In this document: one piece after another, positions 2,981-53,133 of the stretch
How positions within the stretch are numbered: position 1 is the first letter of the stretch
Layout: the number at the start of each line of letters is the position of its first letter
Assembly: GCA_963756005.1 (NCBI GenBank)
Contig: CAVWMC010000008.1
Location: 438,541 to 502,540 of the forward strand
From: an uncultured delta proteobacterium
GTDB lineage: Bacteria; Desulfobacterota; Binatia; Binatales; Binataceae
Direction: 5' to 3'
Length of the DNA stretch: 64,000 bases
The notes under the pieces: generated by a model
Database searches by the model: none
Told to the model about the DNA's origin: nothing
The model's input: only the letters and a program-made list of their open reading frames with translations
Position numbers and translations under genes: made by a program

Positions 2981-4630
2981 TCAATTTCCTTGTGGCGCGG
3001 TGGCTCCGGGAGCCAACGCGGCGCGTTCGGCGGCAAGTTTCTCCGCGATGTCACGGCGCAGTTCAGACTTCCGTATCTTGCCGACGTTGGTGACCGGGAG
3101 TTCGCGCACGATCTCGATTCGCTCGGGCCATTTGAATTGGGCGACGCCGCGCGCCGCCAGAAACTCGCGCATCGCGTCGAGCGCGAAGGTGTCTCCATCA
3201 CGCAACGACAGATAGGCGCACGCTTTCTCGCCGAGAAGCGCGTCGGGCATCGCCACCACCGCGGCGGTGCGGACCGCGGGATGCGCAATGAGGTGCGCTT
3301 CGATTTCCTCCGCGTTGATCTTCTCGCCACCGCGGTTGATCAAGTCCTTGATTCTTCCTTCGACGACCAGGTTCCCGGACGGATCCTGCCGCACCAGGTC
3401 ACCGGTCCGGTAGAAGCCATCGGCGGTGAACGCTTCGCGATTGCGCTCGGGCGCACGGTAGTAGCCGCGGAGTGTGTAGGGTCCGCGACACCACAATTCG
3501 CCAACCGCACCGGCCGCCACATCTGTTCCCTCGGGATTCACGATCCGGATCTCGTCGGCGGGGGAGAGTGGACGGCCTTGAGTGGTGAAGGCGACTTCGT
3601 CGCGCTCATCGAGCCGCGTGTAGCACAACAATCCTTCGGCCATGCCAAGCACCTGCTGCACGGCGACCTGCGGCAGAGCGCGCTTGAGTGCGCGTGCGGT
3701 TGGCTCCTGGAGCCGCTGACCGCCAACCGTGATGACGCGCAGCGAGGCGAGGCTGCCACGCAACGATTCCGCAAGACCGAGCAGGCCGATCGCAATCGTG
3801 GGAACGCATGGCAGATGGGTGATCCGCTCACGCTGAATGACGTCGGCGAGATCAGCCGCCTTGGTGGACTGACTGAAGAACGTACGCGCGCCGCTGAGCA
3901 GCGCGCCGAGCAAGCCGGGACACGCCAGCGGGAAGTTGTGCGCCGCGGGAAGTGCAATCAGGATGCGCGATTCCGAGGTGAGGCCGCATACAGCGGCGGA
4001 CTCGCGCGCGTTGTACAGAAAGTCGGCGTGCGTGCGTGGAATAAGTTTCGGCATCCCGGTGGTGCCGCCGGAAAGGAGAAACAGCGCGACGTCGAATGGA
4101 TCGCGAGCCGAAGATGCAGGCGGGCGCGATGCGTCGCCATGCTCGTGCATCGGGATGCATCCTTCGGCCGGCAATGTAGAGAGGATGAGGCGAGACTTAA
4201 GATCGCGGGCGAGCGCGGCGTGATCGAACCCGCGATACTCGGGCGCAATCGCGATCGCCTTCGCGTCCGAGAACGACAGCAGGTATTCGAGTTCGGCGCG
4301 GCGAAAAGCCGGCAGCGCCATCACCGGAATCGCGCCAACTTCGAGGCATGCGATGGTCAAGGTCGCGAATTCGACGCAGTTGGGGAGCTGGATGACGATG
4401 CGGTTGTTGCGCTCGATCCCATTGCGAGAGAGGAGGGCGGCGAGGGTTCCCGCTTCAGCGATCAGTTGAGAATAGGTGATGCTTCGGGTCGAATCGGCGA
4501 CGGCGATGGAATCGGGACGATCGAGCGCCGCCGTTGCGATCGCGTGCGGTATGGTTTCGCGGCGCCAGATGCCCTCGCGGACGTAGCGTTCCGCAAAGTC
4601 GTCAGGGAATGGCGTGCATCCTTCGAGCAT
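2981..4630 (-). CDS. Aryl-acid adenylating enzyme (EntE/DhbE/salicylate-AMP ligase-like)
   Basis: Motifs LSGGTTGMPKLIPRTH, HNFPLACPG, QVLGMAEGL, GFYRTGD, INRGGEKI and VGKIRK. Confidence 0.88.
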   Translation of the reverse strand: MLEGCTPFPDDFAERYVREGIWRRETIPHAIATAALDRPDSIAVADSTRSITYSQLIAEAGTLAALLSRNGIERNNRIVIQLPNCVEFATLTIACLEVGAIPVMALPAFRRAELEYLLSFSDAKAIAIAPEYRGFDHAALARDLKSRLILSTLPAEGCIPMHEHGDASRPPASSARDPFDVALFLLSGGTTGMPKLIPRTHADFLYNARESAAVCGLTSESRILIALPAAHNFPLACPGLLGALLSGARTFFSQSTKAADLADVIQRERITHLPCVPTIAIGLLGLAESLRGSLASLRVITVGGQRLQEPTARALKRALPQVAVQQVLGMAEGLLCYTRLDERDEVAFTTQGRPLSPADEIRIVNPEGTDVAAGAVGELWCRGPYTLRGYYRAPERNREAFTADGFYRTGDLVRQDPSGNLVVEGRIKDLINRGGEKINAEEIEAHLIAHPAVRTAAVVAMPDALLGEKACAYLSLRDGDTFALDAMREFLAARGVAQFKWPERIEIVRELPVTNVGKIRKSELRRDIAEKLAAERAALAPGATAPQGN

Positions 4631-42600: not shown

Positions 42601-43655
42601 GTTTCGTTGGCGCCGCCGTCCTTGCGCCGCTGCGTGATTTCCATGTTCTTGACGCGCCCGGTGCGCCGAATTTTCTCGAGAAACTGCTCCATCTGCTGGT
42701 CGTCCGGCCACATCCCAAGCGCGATGATGCTGTTGCCAATCACGTCGGCGCGGGTGTACCCGGCGACCTGGTAGTCGTCGTTAACCGCGACAAAGCGTCC
42801 GTCGGCGAGACTGTTGACCGCGATATTGTCCGGCGACGCTTCGAACATCTTGCGCAGCATCGCCTCGCTGGCCTGCAGCTGAACGTGGTCGCGCTCACGG
42901 GCGGTCGCGGTTTCCGCGCGCAGGTATATCTCGCGCCTGAGCAAGCGATCGTTCCGGGCCAGCGCTGTCAGTTGATCGGCCAGCTTCCGACGATAGCGGG
43001 CGCCCAGCACCGCACTCAGTTGCGACCATAGTGCCGCGCTCACGAGCACCATCCAGGCGATCCCGAGACGCGGATTGGGGTCCTCGGTTCGCGCCGAGTA
43101 GGCCAGCAACGCGAGCGCCCCAATCGCCTCGAGCGCCGCCTGCCAGCGCGCGTTCCACGGCAGCAGAGTCCCGGCTGCAAAGAAGGACATCGCCAGTGAC
43201 GCCACCAGCACGTCGCTGTCGCTGTTTATCAGCGCAATCGACGCGGTGGCCGCCATGATCGACGCGAGAATCAGCAGGGTAAGCGCCTGCCAGTTGCGCA
43301 TCGCACGCGGCGATAGCGTCAAGACGAGGGCAGCGACGCCGAATGCCACGATCGCCACATGCAGCGGCAGCGTCCGCGCGAGAGTCTGCGGATACTCCAC
43401 GCGGTCGAGCAACGTGTATCCAATTTCAAAAGCGACGATTGCCAACGCGCCCACGCGCAGGATTGCGCGCGCGTCCGGGACCTCGAGCGCGGCCGGATGC
43501 ATCGTCGCGTCGTCCGGTTCGCGCGGTACGCCGGCTCGCTCATGCGCGATAGCGTCGATTATCGGCGCGGCGCCCGACGCAGCATCGCCATTGGTCGAAT
43601 CGAGCGGGCTGGAACGGCGAACGCCATCGGCGGACGGATCTATCTGGAGGTCCAC
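39684..43655 (-). CDS. Hybrid sensor histidine kinase (TM region, ~4 PAS, HisKA, HATPase, 2 REC)
   Basis: SEFLSSMSHEIRTPMN, NLVGNAIKFT, DTGIG, GGSGLGL and LMDIQMP; repeated PAS units. Confidence 0.93.
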   Translation of the reverse strand: MDLQIDPSADGVRRSSPLDSTNGDAASGAAPIIDAIAHERAGVPREPDDATMHPAALEVPDARAILRVGALAIVAFEIGYTLLDRVEYPQTLARTLPLHVAIVAFGVAALVLTLSPRAMRNWQALTLLILASIMAATASIALINSDSDVLVASLAMSFFAAGTLLPWNARWQAALEAIGALALLAYSARTEDPNPRLGIAWMVLVSAALWSQLSAVLGARYRRKLADQLTALARNDRLLRREIYLRAETATARERDHVQLQASEAMLRKMFEASPDNIAVNSLADGRFVAVNDDYQVAGYTRADVIGNSIIALGMWPDDQQMEQFLEKIRRTGRVKNMEITQRRKDGGANETHLISASMVEVNGDACVISMVRDITAIKRVETSLRASHAALRKIFDATLDIIVVTRLSDGAYIDFNQQFERLGYGQKDLDDSLKGRRQIWASEALHQVFRARITADGVVRNMEVDFILPDGRLMPALVAAVRVELEGEDCVVTMIRDLTAAKQASRALAENEAAQRAIFDLSPDAISVADALDGRYVAVNAEFLRLGGHILEETIGKSDLELGVWAKPSDRERFSATLVSQGQVRNLEVDFLRHDRTIVPTLISAALIDYRHQPCVVAYIRDITPRKQIERDLLSAREELSRQVKALSDSEETFRKLFDANLDSMTLTGTDGNYIDVNQEFTKATGFSRAEAIGHHFTDLNMWIHPDEMIAFGDQLSKTNEVRNLEVMFRMKGGAEQPVLLSALNLELHGQLCCLTISREISDLKMTQRELVAAREAALAASRAKSEFLSSMSHEIRTPMNSILGMADQLMETALDDEQRRYLSTVISNGHALLALINGILDLAKVESGRISLEAIEFDLKDAIEKVLETLAIRAHEKGLELMVRFAPEIPDLVLGDSLRLGQILINLVGNAIKFTHKGQVMVTVEHDPGSTAAGALKFTVRDTGIGIAADQRHLLFHPFSQADSSTSRKYGGSGLGLAIVARLVALMHGTVEVSSEAGSGSAFSFTARFGTAPAIATPAPLFGGMRIIVAGDNAASRSILSDLLTAQGAQVVAAASAAEATARLRRDNSPGSADPIVLLDSALPRRGGFESARQLVREGLDRRRLVMMLGTNDLTCEVAGLRAMGIDNYLVKPVRRAELFAAVARARAGSQLKARDDRAAPPPIAAKPALPAVLDRPLKILMADDSRDNRALIRAYLKKTPYRLEEAEDGQQAIDKFTAGNFDLVLMDIQMPIVDGYEATSTIRVWELANGRRRTPIVALTASALEEAAHRTQAAGCDAHVTKPVTRSTLLEAIRDAVSEPQLDDGTADHASLKEAACRTE

Positions 43656-43800
43656 ATCTGGATAGCAAGCAAGTCCAATGCCCCGTGCCGGGATTGCAAC
43701 GACCTGCTATCGCCGTCCGAGGTTGGCTTCCGTGGCCGAAGTTCAACGCTGTCGCGGCCGGTGTCCCAAAATGCGTTGGCTCCGCGCCTTGAAATGTCTT

Positions 43801-44957
43801 TCAGCCGCCCAGCGCCGCCTCGAAATCCTCGATCAGGTCGTCGCTCGATTCCAGACCGACCGACAACCGCACCAGGCCGTCGCCGATTCCCGCCCGCGCG
43901 CGCTCGGCCGCCGACATCCCCGAATGCGAAGTCGTCGCCGGCCGCGTGATCAGAGTCTCGACGCCGCCAAGGCTGGGCGCGCTGATCGGTATCGTCACGC
44001 GCTCCATCAAACGCCGCGCCGCGTCGAGACCGCCCGCGAGCTCGAAGCTCAGCACGCCGCCGAAGCCGTCGAACAGCTCGCACGCGCGCAGGTGATTCGC
44101 GTGGCTCTCGAGGCCGGGATAGTTCACCCGCGCGACGCGCGATGCTGTTCGAGCCATCGCGCAAGCTTGAGCGCACTTTCATTCTGATGGCGCACGCGGA
44201 CTGCGAGCGTCTTCATCCCGCGATGCAGCAGGAAGCATGCGTGCGGATCGAGACTCGCGCCAAGATGGTTCTGCGTATGGGTGATGCGTTCGACCAGGTC
44301 GGCGCGCCCGATCACGGCGCCGGCGACGATATCGGTATGGCCATTGAGATACTTGGTGCCGCTATGAATCGAGAGGTCGAAGCCGATTTCCGCGGGCCGA
44401 AAATTGATCGGGCTCGCGAACGTGTTGTCGATGATCGAGACCAGCCCGTTCTCCGCCGCGAAATCCACCGCCGCATTCAAGTCGCTCACTTGCAGCAGCG
44501 GATTCGACATCGCCTCGACGTAGATGGCCTTGGTGTTGGGCCGCAGCGCCTCGCGCCACGTGGCCGGCTCGTCGCCATCGACGAAATCCACCGCGAGTCC
44601 GTAGCGCGGGAACTCCTCGACGAACAGATCATGCGTGCCGCCGTACACGCAGTCCTGCGCGAGCAGATGCCCGCCGCCGGCGAGCACCGTGAGGAGCGTC
44701 GCCGATATCGCCGCCATCCCGCTGCCCGCAACCAGCGCCGCTTCCGCGTTTTCGAGCGCCGCCAGCTTGGCGTGCAGCACCGCGTGATTGGGCGTGTTAT
44801 TAAGCCGGATGTAGCGCAGGTCGTGGTAGCTGGTCTGCCCCGCATACTCGTAGGTCGAGGACTGAAATATCGGCATCGTGACCGCGCCACCGATGAGCGG
44901 CTCCGGCTCGCCGGCGTGAATCAGCTTGGTATCGAGTCCTTTGATAAGTCGCGCCAT
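43801..44957 (-). CDS. PLP-dependent trans-sulfuration enzyme (cystathionine gamma-synthase/methionine gamma-lyase family); apparent -1 frameshift at ~44140
   Basis: PIFQSSTY, SGMAAI, YGGT, DNTFASP and HSGTKYLNGHTD; continues as VNYPGL..SLGGVETL..RLSVGLE in ORF 43801..44157. Confidence 0.9.
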
Positions 44958-44960
44958 GGA

Positions 44961-45019
44961 GCCTCCGATGCCACGACATTTATCACCCGGCGCGTCAGGG
45001 AAAATAGGTGTCGGCAGGC
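44961..45019 (+). repeat. 59-bp direct repeat, island boundary (att-like)
   Basis: Identical except 1 nt to 50325-50383. Confidence 0.93.
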
Positions 45020-45237
45020 CCCCTGCTCGCTCCTGGGCTTCGTGGAGCGTCTGTTCCAGTTGATGGTTGCTCTGGAGTTCCGCCGGTATCTTCGGGTGAT
45101 GCGTCTGCCAGCGCTTGAGAATCATCTGGCCCAACCGCTCTGGTGAAATCTGTGGGTCTGCCGGAGAAGAGATTGAGCTGCGCGTAGTCGCGCGGCGGCC
45201 GGCGGAACCCCTTGCCATGGTAAAGTGTCGAAGCCAT
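45020..45237 (-). pseudogene. Truncated small mobile-element protein remnant (TnpV-like, tentative)
   Basis: ..LGQMILKRWQTHHPKIPAELQSNHQLEQTLHEAQERA, cut off by the repeat; frame disrupted. Confidence 0.35.
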
Positions 45238-45503
45238 GCGTCGAAAGTTCCCTCCGTTAGCTCCGGCGAACCAACCGCCAGATCACCACGGGTATGAGAA
45301 ACTTACGGATGTTGCTCACGCGGTGTATTATCAACCAAAAGTTTTGAGGAATGGTTAAGCGCCTATGGCAAAGGGGCCGAAATAGTAGTGCGTAGGCATG
45401 GGTAATCGTTGCGAGCGTAGCCGGAGCGCAGACGCTAACATGCCTAGATCTCGGGAGAATAGAGCGGCAAAACCGCTAACGCAGCTCGTTGGGCGCACGC
45501 ATC

Positions 45504-46625
45504 TCAGTTGAGCACAATGATGGTCGATGGAAATCCGAGGTTGGGAATTCTTATTTCGTGATCCGGAGATACATCGCCATTGCTACCCGCTTTGAACTCC
45601 AGGAGTCTGTCTCCATCCTCGACATAAATCGTCCCTCGTTGGTCAATTGCGATGGTGCAAGGGTCTCTCAGTCCGGTCCTCGGGCCAAAGATACTTGCTA
45701 TAGGAGCACTGCCCTCGTGACTCCCAGGTTTGTACACCGTAATGCTGGGTCCTCCTCTATTCGCTACATAGAGGTTTCCTTCTCCATCGAAAGCAAGACG
45801 GTCAGGGCGAGCCAAGCCGGTGGTAGGCCCCCAAAGTGTCGTGATGGGCGTCACCGTGCCGGAGGCGTCCGCGGACAATTCTGAAATGCAGTTATTGAGG
45901 CCATCGGCGATCCAAAGATTCCCATTGAGATCCAAGGTCATGCCGCCGTACATGCCGCAGCTATAGCCCGGCCGGAATGTGATCTTGGCCTCCGGCGTGC
46001 TGTTGCCGTTTGCATCGGAACGGAACTTGAGAATGCAACTGACGCTCGGCTCCGAGCCGCAGGCGCTTGCGACGAAAATGTGACTGCCATCTGGAGCGAC
46101 CGTTATGGCCAGGCCGCCCAAAAGACTCGTCGCGGGACCGGCTATAATTTTCATGGGGCTGGCATCTCCGCTGCTTCCGGCAGAGAATTTTAGGATGGTG
46201 CTACCACCTTGGAGGACATAGATGTCTCTGTTGTTATCCATGTCCATATCTGTAGGAAAGTCTGATTGGTTCATCGCAGTGAGTGGGCCTGAGATGCTAG
46301 TCACCATGGGAGCGTCGGCTTTTGCTGTTAGGTCGTATACCTGTACGCCGTGCGGTCCTAGAGCGACTAATTTGGTCGCGCCCGATTCATGTGGGCTGTC
46401 GACGCCTCCCACAGAAGGAGCAGGTGAGCGCACGACCGACTCGGCTTCCCTCTCGTGTAGCAGCCACATTCCGAGCAGCACACCCGCAGCGAAACACGTC
46501 ACCCCGGTTAAACTGATCCCCCTTAAGGCTGCAGGGGCGCGCCGCCAGCGGATGATTACGTATATCGCTACGACCGCGAGCACCGATGCGCTAAAGAAGG
46601 GCACAATCCGCCAAACGTCTATCAT
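45504..46625 (-). CDS. Membrane-anchored NHL-repeat beta-propeller protein
   Basis: Two TM segments, then repeats DNNRDIYV, DLNGNLWIAD, FDGEGNLYVAN and IDQRGTIYV with GP.T.L linkers. Confidence 0.75.
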   Translation of the reverse strand: MIDVWRIVPFFSASVLAVVAIYVIIRWRRAPAALRGISLTGVTCFAAGVLLGMWLLHEREAESVVRSPAPSVGGVDSPHESGATKLVALGPHGVQVYDLTAKADAPMVTSISGPLTAMNQSDFPTDMDMDNNRDIYVLQGGSTILKFSAGSSGDASPMKIIAGPATSLLGGLAITVAPDGSHIFVASACGSEPSVSCILKFRSDANGNSTPEAKITFRPGYSCGMYGGMTLDLNGNLWIADGLNNCISELSADASGTVTPITTLWGPTTGLARPDRLAFDGEGNLYVANRGGPSITVYKPGSHEGSAPIASIFGPRTGLRDPCTIAIDQRGTIYVEDGDRLLEFKAGSNGDVSPDHEIRIPNLGFPSTIIVLN

Positions 46626-46749
46626 TTGGTTACTAGCTCCGTTCGCTATGAATCTCCTGAACTCTACGCGTTCGAATTTGTGGTCGTAGATCCAGCGGGC
46701 AAACAGATAGCTGTCCGCGAGCCACCGGCGGTCGCGCTCCGGACAGGCA

Positions 46750-47238
46750 CTAAGGCTTCTTCTTGCAGCCGGGCTGCCCGCAGTTACTCGGCCTTCTGCG
46801 GTTCTGCAGCCCTGGGGATCGCTGCTGCACCTTGGGATTACCACTCTTAGGATTATGATGACAGAAGAGGTCTTGTTCGGCAGGAACTGGACAAGTGTCT
46901 TTCGTCGGCCGGACAAGCCAACCTAAATGAAGCTCGAAGGGATTTATCCCCTTCAGTCGGCAGTACTTAGACAAAAGGATGCCGCCATGACCGTGGCCTG
47001 CGACTTTTCCCCAAAACCCTAGGGCGGAGGCAACTTCGGCGCCGATTCGGTGCCGCATATTTGTGTTCTTAGTCGCATGGCCGGAACCTAGATAGAGCAG
47101 GCCCGCTGGCTCCTGTTCCCACGGCTCCAACGAGAAAACATATAACCCGTAAGTCTCGGGGAAAATTGTCAGAGACGGATCGGCACCACCAACTCGGTCC
47201 AACAATTCGCGTAGCTTATACGGCCCTTCCCAAGGCAT
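46750..47238 (-). CDS. Putative GIY-YIG superfamily nuclease
   Basis: PETYGLYVF..LLYLGS..NMRHRI..AEQ..N pattern; GGAGG RBS. Confidence 0.55.
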   Translation of the reverse strand: MPWEGPYKLRELLDRVGGADPSLTIFPETYGLYVFSLEPWEQEPAGLLYLGSGHATKNTNMRHRIGAEVASALGFWGKVAGHGHGGILLSKYCRLKGINPFELHLGWLVRPTKDTCPVPAEQDLFCHHNPKSGNPKVQQRSPGLQNRRRPSNCGQPGCKKKP

Positions 47239-47408
47239 TTTACTTCTCCTCCGAGTATCGCTTTGCGTTCCCGGGCTTCAAATCTTCGCTCCCCAGGTAA
47301 GCTGCCATCGTCGATCCTACCTCTCCCGCTCGAAGTCTGCTCGCCAGCTGAGCCGGTAAGCCGGCAGCTCGTACTTCGCAGGATCGGCGGGTTCGCCGGC
47401 CGGAGGAC

Positions 47409-47692
47409 TGTGTTCGTGCCATCATTCGTGAGGTTGCCGTTGGCATCGTAGCTCAGCGTCGTTCCGTTGAAAGCGGTCATCTCGTTGTCCGCGTTGAACA
47501 TATTCCCGGTCACCGCCTGCGGCAGATTGGTCTGCGCGAAACTTCCGGTCTTTCCGATCACGCGCCCATCCGCGTCATACGAATATTCCAAATCACCCAC
47601 CCGATTATTGCCTAGCGTCCAGGTCGTCGCTTTCACTCGGGAGTCACCGTCATAGGTGTATGCCGCCAGAATGCCGTTGGGCAGCGTCAGCC
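47409..47692 (-). pseudogene. Rhs/YD-repeat fragment (paralogous to 49279-49562)
   Basis: LTLPNG..YTYDGDSR..YSYDADGR..YDANGNLTNDGTNT; collinear with the other copy at an offset of 1870 bp. Confidence 0.85.
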
Positions 47693-48328
47693 CTTTGGCG
47701 CTGTGCATTTGAACGACCGGAGTACCTGCAAGAACAAGGGCATGGCCTCATTTAATCCTGATGGACTAGTCGAGAGAGTGACATCATAGGCTATGTCGCC
47801 ATACTTTTCCCTCGGCCGGAGCGTGAACACTCCATAATTTATACCTGGTGTTCCAGATACACTATCTTCATATTCCACCGTCTGACGAACCGCTGGCAGG
47901 TTGCACAGCATAGTGCTCTCGCGCTTGATCTTTATCTTGGAAGCTCCACCAAAATTTTTAAGACCGTTCACCTGCAAGTCAGCAATCTGTTTTGCTGTAG
48001 TAAAATCTAAAGCATTATATTCTGCTTCTACACTAACGTAAGAATCCGCGTCATCGTCAAGATCAATGCGTATTCCGTGATTCGGAGCTTCCGGCACCGC
48101 ACCGACTCCTACCAAGTTGTCAGGTATGATTACCGAGTATCCAAATATTGGGTTGTTGTACGATTCGCGAAAGGTCAGACAATCAGAACAATTACGCGTC
48201 GGACCGCGGCCCGTGATGGTACTAGCGCCGGACGGTCGTCCGTCGCTCGGCCCTGTCCAGGCGGAATTCGCTGTTAGCACGCACGAGAAAACTGTGAGTA
48301 TGGTTATGAAGCTCCAGTTGCCTTTCAT
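47687..48328 (-). CDS. Putative periplasmic immunity protein
   Basis: Signal peptide; ATGA-coupled to the upstream Rhs toxin stop; AT-rich. Confidence 0.65.
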   Translation of the reverse strand: MKGNWSFITILTVFSCVLTANSAWTGPSDGRPSGASTITGRGPTRNCSDCLTFRESYNNPIFGYSVIIPDNLVGVGAVPEAPNHGIRIDLDDDADSYVSVEAEYNALDFTTAKQIADLQVNGLKNFGGASKIKIKRESTMLCNLPAVRQTVEYEDSVSGTPGINYGVFTLRPREKYGDIAYDVTLSTSPSGLNEAMPLFLQVLRSFKCTAPKG

Positions 48329-49562
48329 CTTCCTAAACATACCTTCTTCCACTTTAATATATCTTCGTAGTATGAGTCACTCACTCCCTGAGCCCACAGG
48401 CTAGTATTGGCAGTGTTATAGTTAGCGTCAATGAGGAAAGCCAGAAAAGTATCCATCGTCGGCGCGGAGTCAACGTCGCTTGCCCATTGGTTTGACCAAT
48501 CTTGGGCCGAAGCATCAAAATTACTGTAAGGTTGAATTTGCGACCCACTGTTGAAATCTTCGCCGAACATATTGTTTTCATTCGTCGCGCCAGGGCTAGT
48601 CAGGTATGTGCTTTCTAGCCATGATAGAGCCGCTATAAAGTCAGGATTGGTGTTCGCGAATTGCGCGATTTCCTGAAAAAGGTAATAGTGTGTGAAGAAT
48701 GTTCGATACTTTGGCGGACATTTATCGGGGCACATTCCTAGCGGGTCAATCAAATTAACCGGGCTATTACGCACATATCCATAAAGATTGGCATCGCCGC
48801 CAGCGAAGCCGATCGGATCTTGCGCGATGAACCTCTGGAGCGTCGGGCTGTAGTACCTGGCACGATAGTAGTACAGCCCGGTGGCGTCGTTTTCGCGGCC
48901 GGTGTATTGGTAGGAGTTGAAGCTCGACGCGCCGCTAGTAGTCGTGTTTCCGAAAGGCTCATAGGCGTACTGGGTCTGGATCGCGCCGGTAGCATCCGTC
49001 AGAGCCAGGGTGCTTCCAAGATTGTCGGAAAGATAGCTCCGCGCGCCGACTGAGTCGGAGCGTTGGAAATATTCGTCAATCTGGGCGCCGGTCAATAAGT
49101 TTGCGCTGGGCGTATCGCTCGCATCGAGTTCTTGCACTGGATTAAAACCATCATACAGGATCGCGGTAGTGCTGGCTGCAATGGATTTGCTCATCCGACG
49201 ACCCAGAGCGTCATAGATGAAACTGGCCATTGCGCCGCCGCTCATCGCCGTCAGGTGATTGCGAGCGTCCCACGTATATGTGTTCGTGCCATCATTCGTG
49301 AGGTTGCCGTTGGCATCGTAGCTCAGCGTCGTTCCGTTGAAAGCGGTCATCTCGTTGTCTGCGTTGAACGTATTTCCCGCCACCGCCTGCGGCAAGTTGG
49401 TCTGGGCGAAGCTGCCGGGCTTTTGAATCACCCGACCGTCCGCGTCGTATGCGTACTCAAGGTCGCCCACCGGATTGCCCGCTAGCGTCCGGGTCATCGC
49501 CGTCACGCGCGAGTCGTTGTCGTAAGTATTTGCGAGCACGATCCAGTTGGGCGGGGTCAGCC
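48325..49562 (-). CDS. Orphan Rhs core with C-terminal toxin (glucosaminidase/GH73-like); 5'-truncated
   Basis: YD repeats; core YTGRE..GLYYYRARYYSP..RFIAQDPIG..NLYGYV.NSPVNLIDPLG; CT with AALSWLES..NNMFG..Y.NFDAS..W..YN. Confidence 0.85.
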
Positions 49563-49596
49563 ACCCGTTGTACTGTTTAGTTGCTCCGGACCAAGA

Positions 49597-50082
49597 TCAG
49601 TTGTCTACCTCCAAATCGTAACTGGAAGGCAATGACTCAATGCACCAACCCTGGGTGTACCCTTTACAATCTTTTGTGCGTCCTACTTGAATGGAACTCC
49701 GGTAACTCGAACCGGTCGTCTCTCCGTTATAGTAGAAGTAGAGGGTCACTGGAAATTCGAAAGTCTGCACACCCTTCTGAATGCGTTGGCCGCACCCAAC
49801 GATGAAGGAACTATGGTACGGGTCAGAGAGACCCGAAACGTAGTAATGCAGTTTTTCGTCACCCACTCTTTTGCGCAAGCTGTCCGATACATACTCGATA
49901 CCTTTGCTTTCATCTCTAAGGTTCCAAGCCCCAAGGAATTGATCTACGACTCCCAGAGCAAGCAGATACTCAGCGTCCGGCGGATCGGGACATGGAGACG
50001 AGCCATTCGCAGAAGCAACGCATCGCATAGAGCTCACGACTGCCATAAGAACTGCGAACGGCCAGACCATTCTTCGGTACAT
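49597..50082 (-). CDS. Putative periplasmic immunity protein (NTF2-like, tentative)
   Basis: Signal peptide; VVDQFLGAW..YVSDSLR..GWCIESLP; GAGG RBS; follows a toxin remnant. Confidence 0.65.
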   Translation of the reverse strand: MYRRMVWPFAVLMAVVSSMRCVASANGSSPCPDPPDAEYLLALGVVDQFLGAWNLRDESKGIEYVSDSLRKRVGDEKLHYYVSGLSDPYHSSFIVGCGQRIQKGVQTFEFPVTLYFYYNGETTGSSYRSSIQVGRTKDCKGYTQGWCIESLPSSYDLEVDN

Positions 50083-50116
50083 ATGTAACCTCTACGCAAC
50101 GGGGTTAGCGACGAAC

Positions 50117-50324
50117 TCAAAGACCCTGCCAGCACACCGTCGTTGTGCCAGTAATCGCCTAATTCGTTCGCCAACGGTTGCGATATGTCAATACCAGCGC
50201 CATTCGGGACCGTGTCGTTATACTTCTGTACGCAGGATGTACTCGTCAATTAGGTTGCTGTTTGGGTCGTAGGTGAACCTGGTCAGGTTGCCGTCCTCGT
50301 CCATGGTCTGGATGAGGTCGTGTG
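50117..50324 (-). pseudogene. Collapsed Rhs gene: YD fragment joined to an RlpA/DPBB-like toxin tip
   Basis: DEDGNLTRFTYDPNSNL, then YNDTVPNGAGIDISQPLANELG/ITGTTTVCWQGL* across frame breaks. Confidence 0.55.
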
Positions 50325-50383
50325 GCCTCCGATGCCACGACATTTATCACTCGGCGCGTCAGGGAAAATAGGTGTCGGCAGGC
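50325..50383 (+). repeat. 59-bp direct repeat, island boundary (att-like)
   Basis: Contains the last codons (PADTYFP*) of the 50359..51906 gene. Confidence 0.93.
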
Positions 50384-51906
50384 TTGCCGTTGGGGCCAGC
50401 GACGTTGCCGACCACGGGCGCCTCACCGGGGGGCGCGTTGCGGCCGAACAGCGCGGCGATTTGATCGCTATATAGTAGATGCCAGCGCGGGTCCTTCCTG
50501 ACGAGGTCGGCGCCCTTGGTGTTCACGCCCATCAGCACGTAGTCATGCGGATAGGCGTCGAGCAGGGCGGCTGATCCTTCCATCCCATAGTAAAATCTCG
50601 CGTAGTCGCCTTCCTGCTTGTCGGTGTAAACCAGCTCGCCACGCGGATCGATATAGACCTTGAACGCGTCGCCCATGTGCCACAGCACGTACGAGCCCCA
50701 TTCGAACTGGGGCAGGAGATTGCCGTGCAGGTGATGCTGCTGCATGAACGCGAGCGCGCCGGTCGGCATCGGCTTCCAGGTTTTGAGCCGATTCGAGAAG
50801 GTTCCACCGACCAGCGCCAACGCAATCGCGCAAATCGCCATCAGCGCCGCTGGCGGTTCGTCGTTGCCGGCCGGCTGCGCATCAGTTCTGCTCGCGGCCC
50901 CGCGTTCCAGCGCGAGGCTTGCGTGACGTGCGAGCGGGATCGCGACGGCGATAGCGCCGATCGCCACGTTGCGCGCGGCATAGAAGGCGGCGCCGATAAA
51001 GATCGTGGCGACCGCGAGGATCGGTGCGTCGTCGAGGTCGGGGCTGAGCGCGACCGCCGCGACAAATCCGGCGAACAGCAGCAGCGGCGTCACATCGCCA
51101 AGCAATTCGGTAGGGGAGCTTCGCCACAGCGATAGCATCATCGTCGGCAGCGGCACCCAGTCGGCGATTACCTGCCGAATCAACGGGTCGCCGACCGAAT
51201 GCGCCACGCCAAACCACAAGCCCACGCCGAACGGATTGACAATCGTAGCCGCCGCGCATCCAAGCGTGATCAGTGCGAGCCGCCATGCCGACGCCCAGCG
51301 GCGTGAGTCGCCAAACCATCCTTGAACGAACAAGGCCGCGGCCGCGATACCCAACGCGCCGAGACCGACGATGTAACCGCCGTGAAGATTGGCCCATAAC
51401 GCGAACATCGGAATCAGCGGCCACAGGATCGCGCGGCCGCGATAGACTTCGAGCGCGAGCGCCATCATCACGACCGCGATCATCATGAAGGTGAAGAGCT
51501 GCGGCCGAAATTGCATCTGGGTCGAGATGGCGACGGCGCTGAGAATCAGGGTGAGGCGCTGCACGCGGGCCGCGGCGCCGGTGGCGGAAATGCCGACGGC
51601 TAGCGCGACGATGAGGATGCTCGAGCAGGCAAGCTTCAGAAGCTTGAGGCCGAAGACGCCGAGATGCGCATAGAAAAACGCCAGCGCCACCTGCGACAGC
51701 CATTCGTGATTGTGCCAGGGCGCGCCGACCGCGCTGTAGGAATAGGTGTCGAAACGCGGGATGTGGCCGGTGCGCAGGGTGGTCTGGCCGGTCAGCATGT
51801 GAATCCACAAGTCCGGCTCGGCGAAATTGTCGGCCGTCGCGAGCGCGATCGACAGGACTACGGTCCATCGCGACGAGGAAAGGAGCGAGTAACGTTGAGG
51901 TATCAA
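50359..51906 (-). CDS. Polytopic membrane protein (GT-C glycosyltransferase-like); start uncertain
   Basis: DLWIH..G, W.NHEWL, RPQLFT, LWANLHGG, WGSY and IDPR motifs; many TM helices. Confidence 0.75.
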   Translation of the reverse strand: MIPQRYSLLSSSRWTVVLSIALATADNFAEPDLWIHMLTGQTTLRTGHIPRFDTYSYSAVGAPWHNHEWLSQVALAFFYAHLGVFGLKLLKLACSSILIVALAVGISATGAAARVQRLTLILSAVAISTQMQFRPQLFTFMMIAVVMMALALEVYRGRAILWPLIPMFALWANLHGGYIVGLGALGIAAAALFVQGWFGDSRRWASAWRLALITLGCAAATIVNPFGVGLWFGVAHSVGDPLIRQVIADWVPLPTMMLSLWRSSPTELLGDVTPLLLFAGFVAAVALSPDLDDAPILAVATIFIGAAFYAARNVAIGAIAVAIPLARHASLALERGAASRTDAQPAGNDEPPAALMAICAIALALVGGTFSNRLKTWKPMPTGALAFMQQHHLHGNLLPQFEWGSYVLWHMGDAFKVYIDPRGELVYTDKQEGDYARFYYGMEGSAALLDAYPHDYVLMGVNTKGADLVRKDPRWHLLYSDQIAALFGRNAPPGEAPVVGNVAGPNGKPADTYFP

Positions 51907-51990
51907 CGACGTGCGAGTGAATCATCGACGGCGCGCCTTCGCAATAGGCCGCCGCTTTCGCCGACTCAATCGCGCCGGTAATCTGGTTGC

Positions 51991-53133
51991 GTGAAAGCTC
52001 TCGTCATTGGCGGCGGCATTATCGGCGGCTCGGTCGCGTGGCGGCTCGCGTCTGAAGGCGTCCAGGTCAGCGTCTTCGAGCGTGGGCGTCTGGGACAGGA
52101 AGCGTCGTGGGCGGCGGCCGGACTTATCGGGCCGCAGGCTGAGGCGCACGAGCCGGGGGCGTTTTTCGATCTCGCACTGGCCGGCAAGCGATCCTTCGAT
52201 TCCATAGTTGAGCGCCTCACGGCGGAGAGCGGCGTCGATCCCGAGTATGACGCTCACGGCGTGCTCTACGTTGCGTTCGACGACGCGGCTCGCGCCGTAT
52301 TGCAGTCGCGCGCGCGATGGCAGCGCGCGGCGGGCGGCGAGGTCGAGGAGTTGTCGCCGCGAGAGGCGTTCAGGCTGGCGCCGGTGCTGTCGGAAAAGAT
52401 CATCTTCGCGCTGCACATGCCGAACAATCGGCGGGTCGAGAATCGCAAGCTGACACTCGCCTACATCAATGCCGCCACCAACGCCGGCGCCGAGTTCCGC
52501 GAGGGCGCGCGGGTCAACTCGATCGCAATCGAGAGCGGGCGCGCGACCGGTCTGCGGCTGGCGGACGGATCGCTCGAGACCGGCGACGTCGTCATCAACG
52601 CGGCCGGCGCGTGGGCGGGCGACATCCGCGGCCTCGAAGACGATCGCCTCCACTTCTATCCGGTGCGTGGGCAGATTTTATGCTTCGACGCGCGCCCCGG
52701 CCTGATTGGCCCATCGATTTTCTCAACCTCGGGAATATTGGTGCCGCGGCGCGACGGGCGCATCCTGGCCGGCTCGATTTTCGAGGAGGCCGGCTTCAAC
52801 AAGTCCGTCACGCTCGACGGGATGGAACGAATCCTGCGCGCGGTGCGCACGCTGGCGCCATCGATCGCCTCGATTCCGTTTCGCGAAGCATGGGCGGGAC
52901 TGCGCCCGGCGAGCGACGACCTGCTGCCGGTGCTCGGCCCCTCGCCGACCGTCGCCAACGTGCTTTACGCCGCCGGCCACTTCCGCAGCGGCATCCTGCT
53001 GTCCGCGGTGACCGGCGAAGTGATTGCAGACCTCGTCAAAGGCCGTCAGCCGTCGATCGATCTCGCGCCGTTTTCACCGGCGCGCTTCCGCAACGGCACC
53101 GCACGCCCGGTGAAACTCGCCGACATGATATGA
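51991..53133 (+). CDS. thiO: Glycine oxidase ThiO / DAO family
   Basis: IGGGIIG, ASWAAAGL, PVRGQ, WAGLRP and GHFRSGILL. Confidence 0.85.
   Translation: MKALVIGGGIIGGSVAWRLASEGVQVSVFERGRLGQEASWAAAGLIGPQAEAHEPGAFFDLALAGKRSFDSIVERLTAESGVDPEYDAHGVLYVAFDDAARAVLQSRARWQRAAGGEVEELSPREAFRLAPVLSEKIIFALHMPNNRRVENRKLTLAYINAATNAGAEFREGARVNSIAIESGRATGLRLADGSLETGDVVINAAGAWAGDIRGLEDDRLHFYPVRGQILCFDARPGLIGPSIFSTSGILVPRRDGRILAGSIFEEAGFNKSVTLDGMERILRAVRTLAPSIASIPFREAWAGLRPASDDLLPVLGPSPTVANVLYAAGHFRSGILLSAVTGEVIADLVKGRQPSIDLAPFSPARFRNGTARPVKLADMI

What the first reader, a model, noticed from the sequence alone, without database searches (positions are those of the whole stretch)
44961..50383. Integrase-less island bounded by a 59-bp, dyad-symmetric direct repeat in a protein-coding 3' end
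Seen: 44961-45019 equals 50325-50383 (1 mismatch). The repeat carries the last codons and stop of the membrane gene plus the RBS of the downstream trans-sulfuration gene, so both neighbours stay intact. It is itself an imperfect palindrome (gcct..tgcc..gacatttat..ccc-ggcg|cgtc-a-ggg..ataggtgtc-ggca-ggc). It is too long for a transposon TSD and is not a tRNA. Inference: attL/attR of a decayed or trans-mobilised element using an undescribed attB, now acting as a toxin/immunity and defence cargo depot.
Basis: partly seen in the sequence, partly recalled or inferred. Interest (0 to 1): 0.7.

Follow-up and report, generated by a model that had tools for sequence, protein, structure and literature searches.

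The report
Repeat-bounded gene-swap site without integrase
A 59-base repeat really does bracket a 5.3-kb patch of foreign, partly decayed genes between two housekeeping genes, and related soil bacteria carry other gene modules or nothing at the same spot, but no integrase is found and the swapping looks more like ordinary homologous recombination than a dedicated attachment site.

Summary
The 59-nt direct repeat (44961-45019 / 50325-50383, 1 mismatch) is real, has only these two copies in the genome, and is far beyond chance. It duplicates the native junction: the last 7 codons and stop of a membrane gene, then the 34-nt spacer with the RBS of a Cys/Met PLP-enzyme gene. Its dyad symmetry is not significant (z 0.35).

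It bounds a 5,305-bp low-GC insert holding orphan Rhs toxin fragments, candidate immunity genes, an NHL propeller, and a truncated remnant of a dispersed small-ORF/methylase-helicase element.

The site varies across the genus. 22 of 47 genomes and 10 of 13 metagenome contigs have the single-copy empty site. 7 genomes and 3 contigs carry unrelated modules (PDC-M61, TIR effector, DinB±MTase-TetR, HEAT, BNR), singly, in tandem or in permuted order. These are bounded by junction copies of about 20-107 bp.

No recombinase lies in any insert, or within 80 kb in the 6 genomes checked.

The island-side repeat arms are chromosomal junction sequence and follow each host's own variant. This favours homologous exchange between junction copies (about 0.45) over a trans-acting site-specific recombinase (about 0.3).

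Interest is moderate.

The parts
44961..45019 (.). Repeat copy next to the PLP gene (L copy). Read on the minus strand: 7 membrane-gene-like codons, a stop, then a 34-nt spacer ending in the RBS GGAGGC, 3 nt before the PLP ATG.
   Evidence: junction alignments
50325..50383 (.). Repeat copy at the true 3' end of the membrane gene (R copy). It holds the last 7 codons, the stop at 50359-50361 and the spacer with the RBS. It is followed directly by an RHS-repeat fragment instead of the PLP gene.
50359..51906 (-). 515-aa multi-pass membrane protein gene with no Pfam or NCBIfam match. Its nearest ESM-Atlas clusters are GT-C-type ('dolichyl-phosphate-mannose-protein mannosyltransferase family', Binatota/Acidobacteriota). 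That is a lead only.
43801..44957 (-). Cys/Met-metabolism PLP enzyme gene. It is split into two frames (44124-44957 and 43801-44157) by a missing G near 44136.
45020..45125 (-). First ~35 codons of a small ORF of a widespread ~99-aa family. The ORF is cut off exactly at the L copy and reads in frame through it into the PLP gene.
   Evidence: weak TnpV match (E 0.001, below cutoff)
45126..45364 (-). Conserved leader of that small ORF. Together with the truncated ORF it makes a 345-nt stretch. That stretch is shared with the island end of G006 (75%) and dispersed in 13 of 47 genomes of the genus.
45504..46916 (-). 470-aa ORF with NHL / beta-propeller repeats in its C-terminal half.
46750..47238 (-). 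162-aa ORF with no match in Pfam, NCBIfam or PADLOC.
47169..47708 (-). Truncated Rhs/YD-repeat fragment (179-aa ORF). Its 5' part (47409-47692) repeats 49279-49562 at 81% over 284 nt.
47687..48352 (-). 221-aa protein with an N-terminal hydrophobic, signal-like segment, lying directly downstream of the Rhs C-terminal module. It is a candidate immunity protein by inference from position only.
   Evidence: no family match
48325..49539 (-). Orphan Rhs C-terminal module of 404 aa: YD repeats, the Rhs-associated core domain (TIGR03696, E 9.4e-25), and a ~135-aa tail with a sub-threshold glucosaminidase-like match (E 1.1e-5, 26.5 bits against a cutoff of 30.2).
49597..50082 (-). 161-aa protein with a signal-like N-terminus and no family match.
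50218..50343 (-). 41-aa ORF holding one RHS repeat (E 2.7e-4). It is a gene fragment abutting the R copy.

Best explanation
The repeat is a duplicated copy of the native junction between a membrane-protein gene and a PLP-enzyme gene. This junction is a genus-wide gene-swap site. Between two (in one genome three) copies of the junction lie interchangeable modules. In this genome the module is a 5.3-kb, low-GC stretch of decayed foreign DNA: orphan Rhs toxin fragments with likely immunity genes, an NHL propeller, and the stump of a dispersed small-ORF/methylase-helicase element.

Most likely mechanism (inferred, not shown): modules are gained, lost and reordered by the host's own homologous recombination acting on the junction copies. 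A module can loop out between two copies. A module circle carrying one junction copy can re-insert Campbell-style. A module can also transfer together with its conserved flanks. Cargo inside the repeats is further replaced by illegitimate joints. No dedicated integrase is needed. The repeats are the product and the handle of this traffic, not a specialised att site.

Shown: the repeat, the empty sites, the alternative modules, tandem and permuted module orders, the absence of recombinases, and the chromosomal nature and within-genome similarity of the repeat arms. Inferred: that RecA-type recombination is the agent, and that circles are intermediates.
For: 1. One site, many states. In one search (47 genomes) 22 show a continuous empty allele and G019 is nearly so. 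Seven have extra DNA between duplicated junction copies: G000, G006, G015, G032, G036, G067 and G062. Of 13 metagenome loci, 10 are empty and 3 occupied.

2. The cargo is unrelated between sites. G006 holds PDC-M61A/B (E 1.6e-66 and 7.5e-143). G032 holds a CAP12/Pycsar-type TIR protein. G015 holds DinB, G036 a BNR propeller, G067 TetR-MTase-DinB plus HEAT, L080 HEAT, and L085 HEAT-end, then TetR-MTase-DinB.

3. The modules behave as units. HEAT occurs alone (L080) and in tandem (G067, three junction copies). G067 and L085 are 96% identical over 2,017 nt of TetR-MTase-DinB, yet HEAT lies on opposite sides of it.

4. Duplication length varies: about 107, 59, 50, 43, 25 and 20 nt. All versions share GCGTCAGGGAAAATAGG.

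5. The island-side arms are chromosomal junction sequence. They include the PLP ATG plus codons (G015, G067), 48 nt of PLP (G006), and 86 nt of diverged membrane-gene end (G062). In G027 and G069 whole second membrane-gene copies show the same topology.

6. The two copies within a genome share that host's own variant. Both L080 copies have GTGCTGCGG. Both G067 copies have the short spacer. Both G000 copies have the GGCAGGC tail, against CGCRGGY in both G006 copies. This is concerted evolution, as expected from exchange between the copies.

7. No recombinase. No Pfam integrase, resolvase or transposase hit appeared in the island ORFs scanned. Six-frame scans put the nearest tyrosine recombinase 80 kb away in G000, and 116-392 kb away or on other contigs in G006, G015, G032, G036 and G067. 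No serine recombinase lies within 1 Mb on the same contig.

8. No further copy of the junction (a would-be attP) was found elsewhere in any genome searched or in the metagenome scan.

9. The G000/G006 island end is a joint inside a truncated ORF with CCT microhomology. That is an illegitimate joint or a deletion endpoint.

10. On a tree of the PLP flank, all 10 occupied alleles sit within one clade of 26 rows, interleaved with 16 empty ones. This needs several gains or losses.

11. [quoted passage not shown]
Against: Homology of 20-59 nt is short for RecA-dependent exchange.

The module-side boundaries of the PLP-side copies cluster within about 13 nt (11-24 nt before the end of the stop codon), while the other boundaries spread over more than 150 nt. 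A preferred crossover point would explain that clustering better.

In the three cases where the two copies differ (L083, G015, G032), the identical stretch always includes GGAAAATAGG. This is also what a fixed crossover site predicts.

Homologous recombination cannot by itself create the first duplication for each new module.

The flank identities on the PLP and membrane sides correlate (r 0.61, 210 pairs) without clear outliers, so no recombination breakpoint at the site was demonstrated.

The junction core is not the longest identity tract in the region. The PLP 5' end is as conserved or more so.

Reads were available only as contigs, so no excised circle and no empty allele within the population could be seen.
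Confidence: 0.45

Rival explanations
1. The repeat copies are attL/attR of decayed, integrase-less elements (CIME-like). An unlinked site-specific recombinase mobilises them in trans, crossing over within the shared core GCGTCAGGGAAAATAGG. New modules accrete in tandem at either att copy.
For: The empty site, the repeat-bounded inserts, and the tandem and permuted modules fit accretion at att sites as described for CIMEs (PMC5704250, passage read). The PLP-side boundaries cluster within about 13 nt. The invariant stretch between differing copies always includes GGAAAATAGG. A remnant of a mobile-type element lies at the island end. The genomes do encode unlinked tyrosine and large serine recombinases.
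Against: None of the 10 occupied alleles has a recombinase. None lies within 80 kb in the 6 genomes checked in six frames. No attP-like extra copy of the core was found anywhere. The island-side arms are chromosomal sequence and follow the host's own variant, whereas precise site-specific exchange should keep the module's own arms. The G000/G006 island end lies inside a truncated gene. The dyad symmetry is not significant.
Confidence: 0.3
2. A single old duplication of the junction created two copies. It could have been a tandem duplication, or the insertion of a second membrane-gene unit as still seen in G027 and G069. The DNA between the copies is dispensable space in which cargo is replaced in place by illegitimate insertions and deletions. 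The repeats are passive leftovers whose inner ends are nibbled to different lengths, and they also allow precise loss.
For: G027 and G069 have two tandem membrane-gene copies, each preceded by the core, and G027 also has PLP 5' fragments. G062 keeps 86 nt of a diverged membrane-gene end at its inner copy. G000 and G006 share the PLP-side junction and 345 nt, but differ in the rest of the cargo and in the length of the other copy, 59 against 107 nt. Joints show microhomology or fall inside genes.
Against: The same modules (HEAT, DinB±MTase-TetR) recur in different lineages, alone, together and in different order. Occupied and empty alleles are interleaved on the flank tree. Both observations need movement of modules, not only in-place decay. 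The repeat copies stay nearly identical within genomes (58 of 59 nt here, 43 of 43 nt in L080), although the shared G000/G006 remnant has diverged to 75%.
Confidence: 0.17
3. This is an integron-like cassette array. The junction copies act as attC-type sites for an integron integrase encoded elsewhere (a CALIN-like cluster).
For: The modules are short, often single-gene units separated by copies of a ~40-60-nt site, and they occur in variable number and order.
Against: The site does not fold better than shuffled sequence. It lacks the terminal RYYYAAC/GTTRRRY boxes of attC sites (consensus recalled from memory, compared by eye). It is native coding and RBS sequence present once in every empty allele. 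At most three copies are seen. Gene orientation within modules is mixed. No recombinase is nearby.
Confidence: 0.03
4. This is an assembly artefact: a chimeric join at a 59-nt repeat placed foreign DNA between the two genes.
For: The genome is a 17-contig assembly. Public contigs often break at the repeat, for example an X6 contig that ends at 44990.
Against: Contigs from other public runs bridge both junctions and cover most of the island, in runs of four studies. The PLP-side junction with the same 345-nt remnant recurs in the one-contig genome G006. The same architecture is found in 6 other genomes and 3 metagenome contigs.
Confidence: 0.02

Closest known systems
CIMEs (cis-mobilizable elements) and tandem accretion at att sites of ICEs/IMEs (PMC5704250, passage read)
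   Same: Like CIMEs, these are integrase-less DNA segments bounded by direct repeats. The repeats include the 3' end of a target gene, so the gene stays whole. Tandem arrays form, and remnants of mobile-element genes are present.
   Different: No integrase-bearing relative or attP was found at this site. The repeat arms are host junction sequence that follows the host's own variant. The repeat length varies from about 20 to 107 nt. The target is a junction between two protein-coding genes, not a tRNA gene.
Integrase-free HGT hotspots and core defence hotspots between conserved core genes (PMC5635113, passages read; PMC10250203, passages read)
   Same: The flanking genes are conserved. Gene content is highly variable, low-GC and often defence-related. 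No mobility genes are present. The proposed turnover is by homologous recombination.
   Different: The passages I read of those papers do not describe duplicated junction repeats. Here every insert is bounded by a duplicated copy of the junction itself, and small modules recur singly, in tandem and in permuted order.
Integron cassette arrays and CALINs (recalled from memory, no paper read)
   Same: Both have short modules separated by a repeated ~40-60-nt site, with variable number and order and no adjacent integrase.
   Different: The site is native coding/RBS sequence without significant hairpin potential or attC boxes. At most three copies are seen, and gene orientations are mixed.
Orphan rhs toxin/immunity clusters (recalled from memory)
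   Same: Both have truncated rhs 3' fragments with the Rhs core motif and variable C-terminal tails, each followed by a small gene, plus an internal repeat between the core-encoding pieces.
   Different: There is no full-length rhs gene next to them, and none was found in the genome. So the usual route of swapping tails into a main gene is not available here.
Genomic islands in tandem at the ssrA 3' end of Dehalococcoides (PMC3146451; search listing and start of abstract only)
   Same: Islands are integrated at the 3' end of a single-copy gene with repeated target fragments.
   Different: From the title and abstract start only, that system is described as site-specific mobilization at ssrA. 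I did not read further, so no detailed comparison is made.

Membership tests
Integrative element att sites (attL/attR), including CIME | Direct repeats flank the insert, and the same sequence occurs once at the empty site of relatives | tested here: met
Integrative element att sites (attL/attR), including CIME | A tyrosine or serine recombinase lies in the element, or in more intact relatives at the same site | tested here: not met
   None of the 10 occupied alleles has one. In one search I scanned 94 of the 168 ORFs listed. Six-frame scans of 6 genomes show none within 80 kb.
Integrative element att sites (attL/attR), including CIME | An attP copy on a free or resident element, or a circular junction | tested here: not met
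   No extra core copy was found in the genomes, or in the 13 metagenome loci. No joint across the island was seen, but that call had contigs only, so rare forms are invisible.
Integrative element att sites (attL/attR), including CIME | Element-side arms belong to the element and stay with it across hosts | tested here: not met
   The arms carry the host's own spacer variant and pieces of the PLP and membrane genes. Only a few informative sites were available.
Integrative element att sites (attL/attR), including CIME | A fixed crossover region | tested here: inconclusive
   In the 3 informative alleles the identical stretch includes GGAAAATAGG. This stretch is also the most conserved part of the junction.
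Integrase-free HGT / defence hotspot between core genes | Conserved flanking genes with variable, horizontally acquired content and no mobility genes | tested here: met
Integrase-free HGT / defence hotspot between core genes | Raised homologous recombination in the flanking genes | tested here: inconclusive
   Flank identities correlate (r 0.61) with no clear outliers. No formal recombination test was run.
Integron / CALIN cassette array | attC sites: imperfect palindromes that fold, with conserved terminal boxes | tested here: not met
   z 0.35 and 0.28. The boxes are absent by eye; the consensus is recalled from memory.
Integron / CALIN cassette array | An integron integrase next to the array (not required for CALIN) | tested here: not met
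Transposon with target-site duplication | A short duplication of fixed length, terminal inverted repeats, and a transposase | tested here: not met
   The duplications range from 20 to 107 nt. No transposase domain was found in the inserts. Only G036 has inverted 27-nt hairpin ends.
Rhs orphan toxin/immunity cluster | rhs 3' fragments with the core motif and a variable tail, followed by small genes | tested here: met
Rhs orphan toxin/immunity cluster | Location downstream of a full-length rhs gene | tested here: not met
   Only two Rhs core matches exist in the genome, in open frames of 423 and 270 aa. The genome is 95% complete.

The most novel reading that the evidence does not exclude
The ~40-nt conserved junction (ACGACATTTATCAYYCGGCGCRTCASGGAAAATAGGTGTC) is a true recombination site for an unlinked, still unidentified recombinase. 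This would make the locus a small cassette-exchange platform. It would be functionally like an integron array, but it would be built on a protein-coding 3' end plus RBS, with no attC-type structure. It would shuttle defence and toxin modules among soil Binatota-like bacteria.
Probability: 0.12. Interest if true: 0.75.

Novelty: new variant of a known kind. Interest (0 to 1): 0.4.

Why it matters
How integrase-free variable regions and defence hotspots are built and turned over is an open question. The discussion of PMC10250203 says so, and PMC5635113 infers homologous recombination only indirectly.

This locus offers a concrete handle on that question. Every insert is bounded by a copy of the junction. 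The same small modules appear alone, in tandem and reordered in close relatives. Empty alleles are common. These features give clear, opposite predictions for a RecA-driven and a recombinase-driven mechanism, and both can be tested.

The limits are that the organisms are uncultured soil bacteria known from assemblies, and that the cargo in this particular genome is mostly debris.

Tried and rejected
- **Riboswitch or other known RNA in the repeat.** The repeat sits before a met-type gene, but there is no Rfam match at E<=1 in 43500-52500.
- **tRNA or tmRNA target.** None in the window.
- **Sigma-70 promoter or intrinsic terminator in 44800-45600.** None found.
- **Dispersed REP/MITE-type repeat.** Rejected; the genome has only 2 copies.
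- **Hairpin or dyad function.** No better than shuffles.
- **Conservation of the core.** My first estimate was biased, because I had selected alleles with a core regex and 7 of 24 alleles failed it. I redid it by BLAST coordinates on 26 alleles.
- **The core as the best homology anchor.** Not supported; the longest identity tracts mostly lie in the PLP 5' end.
- **Discordant flank histories.** Inconclusive.
- **PADLOC on the window's own cargo.** No hit for 5 of 5 proteins.
- **Origin of the 345-nt remnant.** I inspected three more complete copies with 20-kb contexts (G028, G034, G004) and scanned 34 of the 58 listed ORFs. These copies are also fragments in variable regions, next to Mrr, an IS3-type transposase and kinases. 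None of the scanned ORFs is a tyrosine or serine integrase.
- **Read-level search for an empty allele or a circle.** Only contigs were served. No joint across the island was seen. One weak joint inside the PLP gene (44518 to 44883, one X10 contig, side 28) is disregarded.
- **Earlier notes of this scan.** Nothing for this place.
- **Not used.** Structure prediction, complex prediction and the phage/plasmid collections, because they would not bear on the mechanism.

Full report
**The observation.**
Positions 44961-45019 and 50325-50383 are a 59-nt direct repeat with one mismatch. No shuffled window gave any match at up to 3 mismatches (0 of 100). The genome (17 contigs, 4.70 Mb) holds only these two copies, so this is not a dispersed REP- or MITE-type repeat.

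All genes here are on the minus strand. In gene order the locus reads as follows:
- A 515-aa membrane-protein gene (50359-51906).
- The repeat copy at its true 3' end. It covers the last 7 codons, the stop, and 34 nt ending in GGAGGC.
- 5,305 bp of inserted DNA.
- The second repeat copy.
- Three nucleotides later, the ATG (44957) of a Cys_Met_Meta_PP gene, Pfam E 1e-84.

The insert has GC 0.45-0.60 against 0.60-0.69 outside it. There is no tRNA or tmRNA and no Rfam family.

- The dyad symmetry is no better than chance: z 0.35 as DNA and 0.28 as RNA, with 124 and 117 of 200 shuffles folding at least as well.
- The PLP gene is not intact. It lacks one G near 44136 that three relatives have. This splits it into 44124-44957 and 43801-44157. 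The frameshift may be real or an assembly error.

**Is it an artefact?**
Contigs of four public soil-metagenome runs from four studies cover large parts of the island at 93-100% likeness. One contig spans 44905-45828 and another spans 49579-51000, so both junctions are bridged. These two runs are one sample, which may be the assembly's source. Independently, the PLP-side junction recurs in the single-contig genome G006. I consider misassembly very unlikely.

**What is inside.**
Read in gene direction, the insert holds:
- A 41-aa RHS-repeat fragment abutting the repeat.
- A 161-aa protein with a signal-like N-terminus.
- A 404-aa orphan Rhs C-terminal module. It has the Rhs-associated core domain (TIGR03696, E 9.4e-25) and a ~135-aa tail with a sub-threshold glucosaminidase-like match.
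- A 221-aa signal-like protein, a candidate immunity protein by position only.
- A second truncated Rhs fragment. Its 5' part repeats the first at 81% over 284 nt.
- A 162-aa ORF with no family match.
- A 470-aa NHL-propeller protein.

None of these matches PADLOC. The genome has only two Rhs core-domain matches, in open frames of 423 and 270 aa, and no full-length rhs. These are therefore orphans without a carrier gene.

**The last 345 nt before the PLP-side repeat (45020-45364).**
This stretch is shared with the island end of G006 at 75%. It is also dispersed in 13 of 47 genomes of the genus, with up to 5 places per genome and only one in this genome.

Alignment shows a conserved leader followed by the first ~35 codons of a small ORF. 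In G034 and G028 the ORF continues to ~99 aa. That ORF belongs to a real family with 163 database relatives, mostly unnamed. It has a weak, sub-threshold TnpV match (E 0.001).

The frame downstream of it matches the N-terminus of fused methylase/SNF2-helicase proteins of about 1,600-1,800 aa. A source names these 'N12 class adenine-specific DNA methylase'. My impression that such proteins are typical of conjugative elements is recalled, not tested.

In both G000 and G006 the small ORF is cut at the same codon, exactly where the repeat begins, with CCT microhomology. This end of the island is therefore an illegitimate joint or a deletion endpoint, inherited from a common ancestor, and not an intact element terminus.

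Three more complete copies, inspected with 20-kb contexts, are themselves fragments in variable regions. None of the 34 ORFs scanned there is an integrase.

**The site in relatives.**
I used an empty allele as the query against all 47 genomes of the genus. Searches gave supporting coordinates.
- 22 genomes have a continuous empty site. This count includes the unpublished G023, which I used only in this count.
- G019 is nearly continuous.
- 7 genomes have extra DNA between duplicated junction copies: G000, G006, G015, G032, G036, G067 and G062.
- G027 and G069 have two tandem membrane-gene copies, each preceded by the core.
- G014, G016 and G024 lack the membrane gene, and in them PLP lies next to the DAO gene.
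- G030 is split over contigs.
- 10 genomes have only a distant membrane-gene match.
- 2 genomes have no match.

A metagenome scan with a degenerate 35-nt core returned 13 loci, all at this same locus. Ten are empty and three are occupied.

The cargo differs between sites:

| Genome or contig | Cargo |
|---|---|
| G006 | Complete PDC-M61A/B pair (E 1.6e-66 and 7.5e-143) |
| G032 | CAP12/Pycsar-type TIR protein |
| G015 | DinB |
| G036 | BNR propeller |
| G067 | TetR-methyltransferase-DinB plus a HEAT-repeat protein |
| G062 | DinB-methyltransferase-TetR |
| L080 | HEAT |
| L085 | HEAT end, then TetR-methyltransferase-DinB |
| L083 | About 500 bp without a family match |

No integrase, resolvase or transposase domain was found in any insert. 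In one search I scanned 94 of the 168 ORFs of at least 90 aa listed. I left out ORFs lying in the flanking genes and short frames overlapping larger ones.

Six-frame scans put the nearest tyrosine recombinase 80 kb away in G000. In G006, G015, G032, G036 and G067 it is 116-392 kb away or on another contig. No serine recombinase lies within 1 Mb on the same contig.

**Anatomy of the junction copies.**
Every occupied site has the topology PLP, core, (membrane-gene remnant), cargo, (PLP or spacer remnant), core, membrane gene.

The duplicated length varies:
- About 107 nt in G006, running 48 nt into PLP.
- 59 nt here.
- About 50 nt in G015 and L083.
- 43 nt, identical, in L080.
- About 25 nt in G036.
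- About 20 nt in G032.

All versions share GCGTCAGGGAAAATAGG, which is the stop and last codons of the membrane gene. G067 has three copies and therefore two inserts in tandem.

The modules recur:
- DinB is 85-91% identical among G015, G067, G062 and L085.
- TetR-MTase-DinB is 96% identical over 2,017 nt between G067 and L085.
- HEAT is 82% identical between G067 and L080.

Between G067 and L085 the HEAT module lies on opposite sides of the otherwise nearly identical TetR-MTase-DinB module. Modules bounded by junction copies are thus gained, lost and reordered.

On a tree of 725 nt of the PLP flank, all 10 occupied alleles fall in one clade of 26 rows (support 85/81), interleaved with 16 empty ones. 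Cargo type does not follow the tree.

**Mechanism.**
Two readings fit the topology equally well. One is site-specific recombination at a core by an unlinked enzyme (a CIME-like situation; PMC5704250, passage read). The other is homologous exchange between junction copies, with loop-out, Campbell-type re-insertion, or transfer together with the flanks. This second reading matches integrase-free hotspots (PMC5635113 and PMC10250203, passages read).

Four observations tip me towards the second reading.
1. The island-side arms of the copies are chromosomal junction sequence. They include lineage-specific long, mid or short spacer variants, the PLP start codon and following codons, and up to 86 nt of membrane-gene end.
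2. Within a genome both copies carry that host's own variant: L080, G067, and G000 against G006. Precise site-specific exchange keeps element arms apart from host arms, whereas gene conversion homogenises them. The number of informative sites is small.
3. No recombinase and no attP-like extra copy was found anywhere I looked.
4. The G000/G006 island end lies inside a truncated gene.

Four observations count against it.
1. 20-59 nt is short for RecA-type exchange.
2. The module-side ends of the PLP-side copies cluster within about 13 nt, while the other ends spread over more than 150 nt.
3. In the three alleles whose copies differ, the identical stretch always contains GGAAAATAGG.
4. Homologous recombination cannot create the first duplication for each new module.

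The core is conserved about as well as the PLP coding region, but it is not the longest identity tract nearby. Flank identities give no clear breakpoint.

I therefore give about 0.45 to homologous exchange and about 0.3 to a trans-acting recombinase. I give about 0.17 to a single old duplication with purely in-place cargo turnover. Little remains for an integron-like system or an artefact.

**Comparison and novelty.**
The locus works like an integrase-free HGT or defence hotspot, but with an unusual, explicit signature. Each insert is bounded by a duplicated copy of the gene junction, and small modules behave like cassettes.

It resembles CIME accretion in layout but fails three defining tests: a recombinase, an attP, and element-owned arms. 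It fails the integron tests of attC structure and boxes; the attC consensus is recalled from memory. It is Rhs-orphan-like in content but has no main rhs gene. I file it as a new variant of a known kind.

I searched the paper library only twice. I make no claim that such repeat-bounded hotspots are absent from print. I did not consult any supplements.

The organism appears to belong to Candidatus Binatota. This rests only on source names and Atlas taxa, and is a lead.

**Verdict.**
The repeat and the island are real. The att-site interpretation is possible but not the best-supported one. The dyad symmetry is not meaningful. The cargo in this genome is mostly debris.

Noticed in passing
window ~44136 (within 44124-44157): The PLP (Cys_Met_Meta_PP) gene lacks one G that G006, G029 and G008 have. 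This splits it into two frames. It is either a real pseudogene or an assembly indel.
   Followed up: partly
window 45020-45364; also L064, L066, L067-L072: A conserved leader of about 100-240 nt plus a ~99-aa ORF family (163 database relatives, mostly unnamed; two clusters are labelled 'Cas1' by one source, probably a misnomer). It is dispersed in 13 of 47 genomes of the genus. It often appears as leader-only fragments next to HEPN, RES, HNH, Mrr or IS3-type genes. Its function is unknown and it has no Rfam match.
   Followed up: partly
window 44955-45125, minus strand; G006 L043 ~1000-1230: The truncated small ORF reads in frame, without a stop, through the repeat copy into the PLP gene in both G000 and G006. 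This gives a possible N-terminal fusion, or borrowed expression signals for PLP after the island cut it off from the membrane gene. It could be chance.
   Followed up: no
L044 ~1010-1050, L046 ~3670-3710, L053 ~3325-3350 and ~4235-4260, L085 ~160-190: The same GC-rich hairpin (GGCGGGCACGGCGGCCCGCC) lies at module boundaries next to the junction copies in G015, G032, G067 and L085. In G067 it extends the repeated unit to about 88 nt. It may be a terminator or a REP-like element.
   Followed up: partly
L045 ~1055-1085 and ~2600-2630 (G036): The 1.6-kb insert of G036 has 27-nt inverted copies of a hairpin sequence (1 mismatch) near both ends. No other insert shows this.
   Followed up: no
L047 (G027) and L056 (G069): Two tandem, diverged copies of the membrane gene (about 75-86% to the query). 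Each is preceded by the core, and in G027 also by 110-160 nt of PLP 5' sequence, while a full PLP gene was not found in G027.
   Followed up: partly
L043 1638-4830 (G006): A complete PADLOC candidate defence pair PDC-M61A/B (484 and 566 aa, the latter Hsp70/actin-like) occupies the same site in G006, on the strand opposite to the flanking genes.
   Followed up: partly
L057, L058, L059 (G014, G016, G024): These genomes lack the membrane gene and the core. PLP lies next to the FAD oxidoreductase (DAO) gene, directly or with a PAP2 gene between. So the membrane gene with its core is itself variable at deeper level.
   Followed up: no
window 47409-47692 and 49279-49562: A 284-nt internal direct repeat (81%) between the two Rhs-core-encoding fragments. 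It is the kind of homology that lets rhs tails recombine.
   Followed up: no
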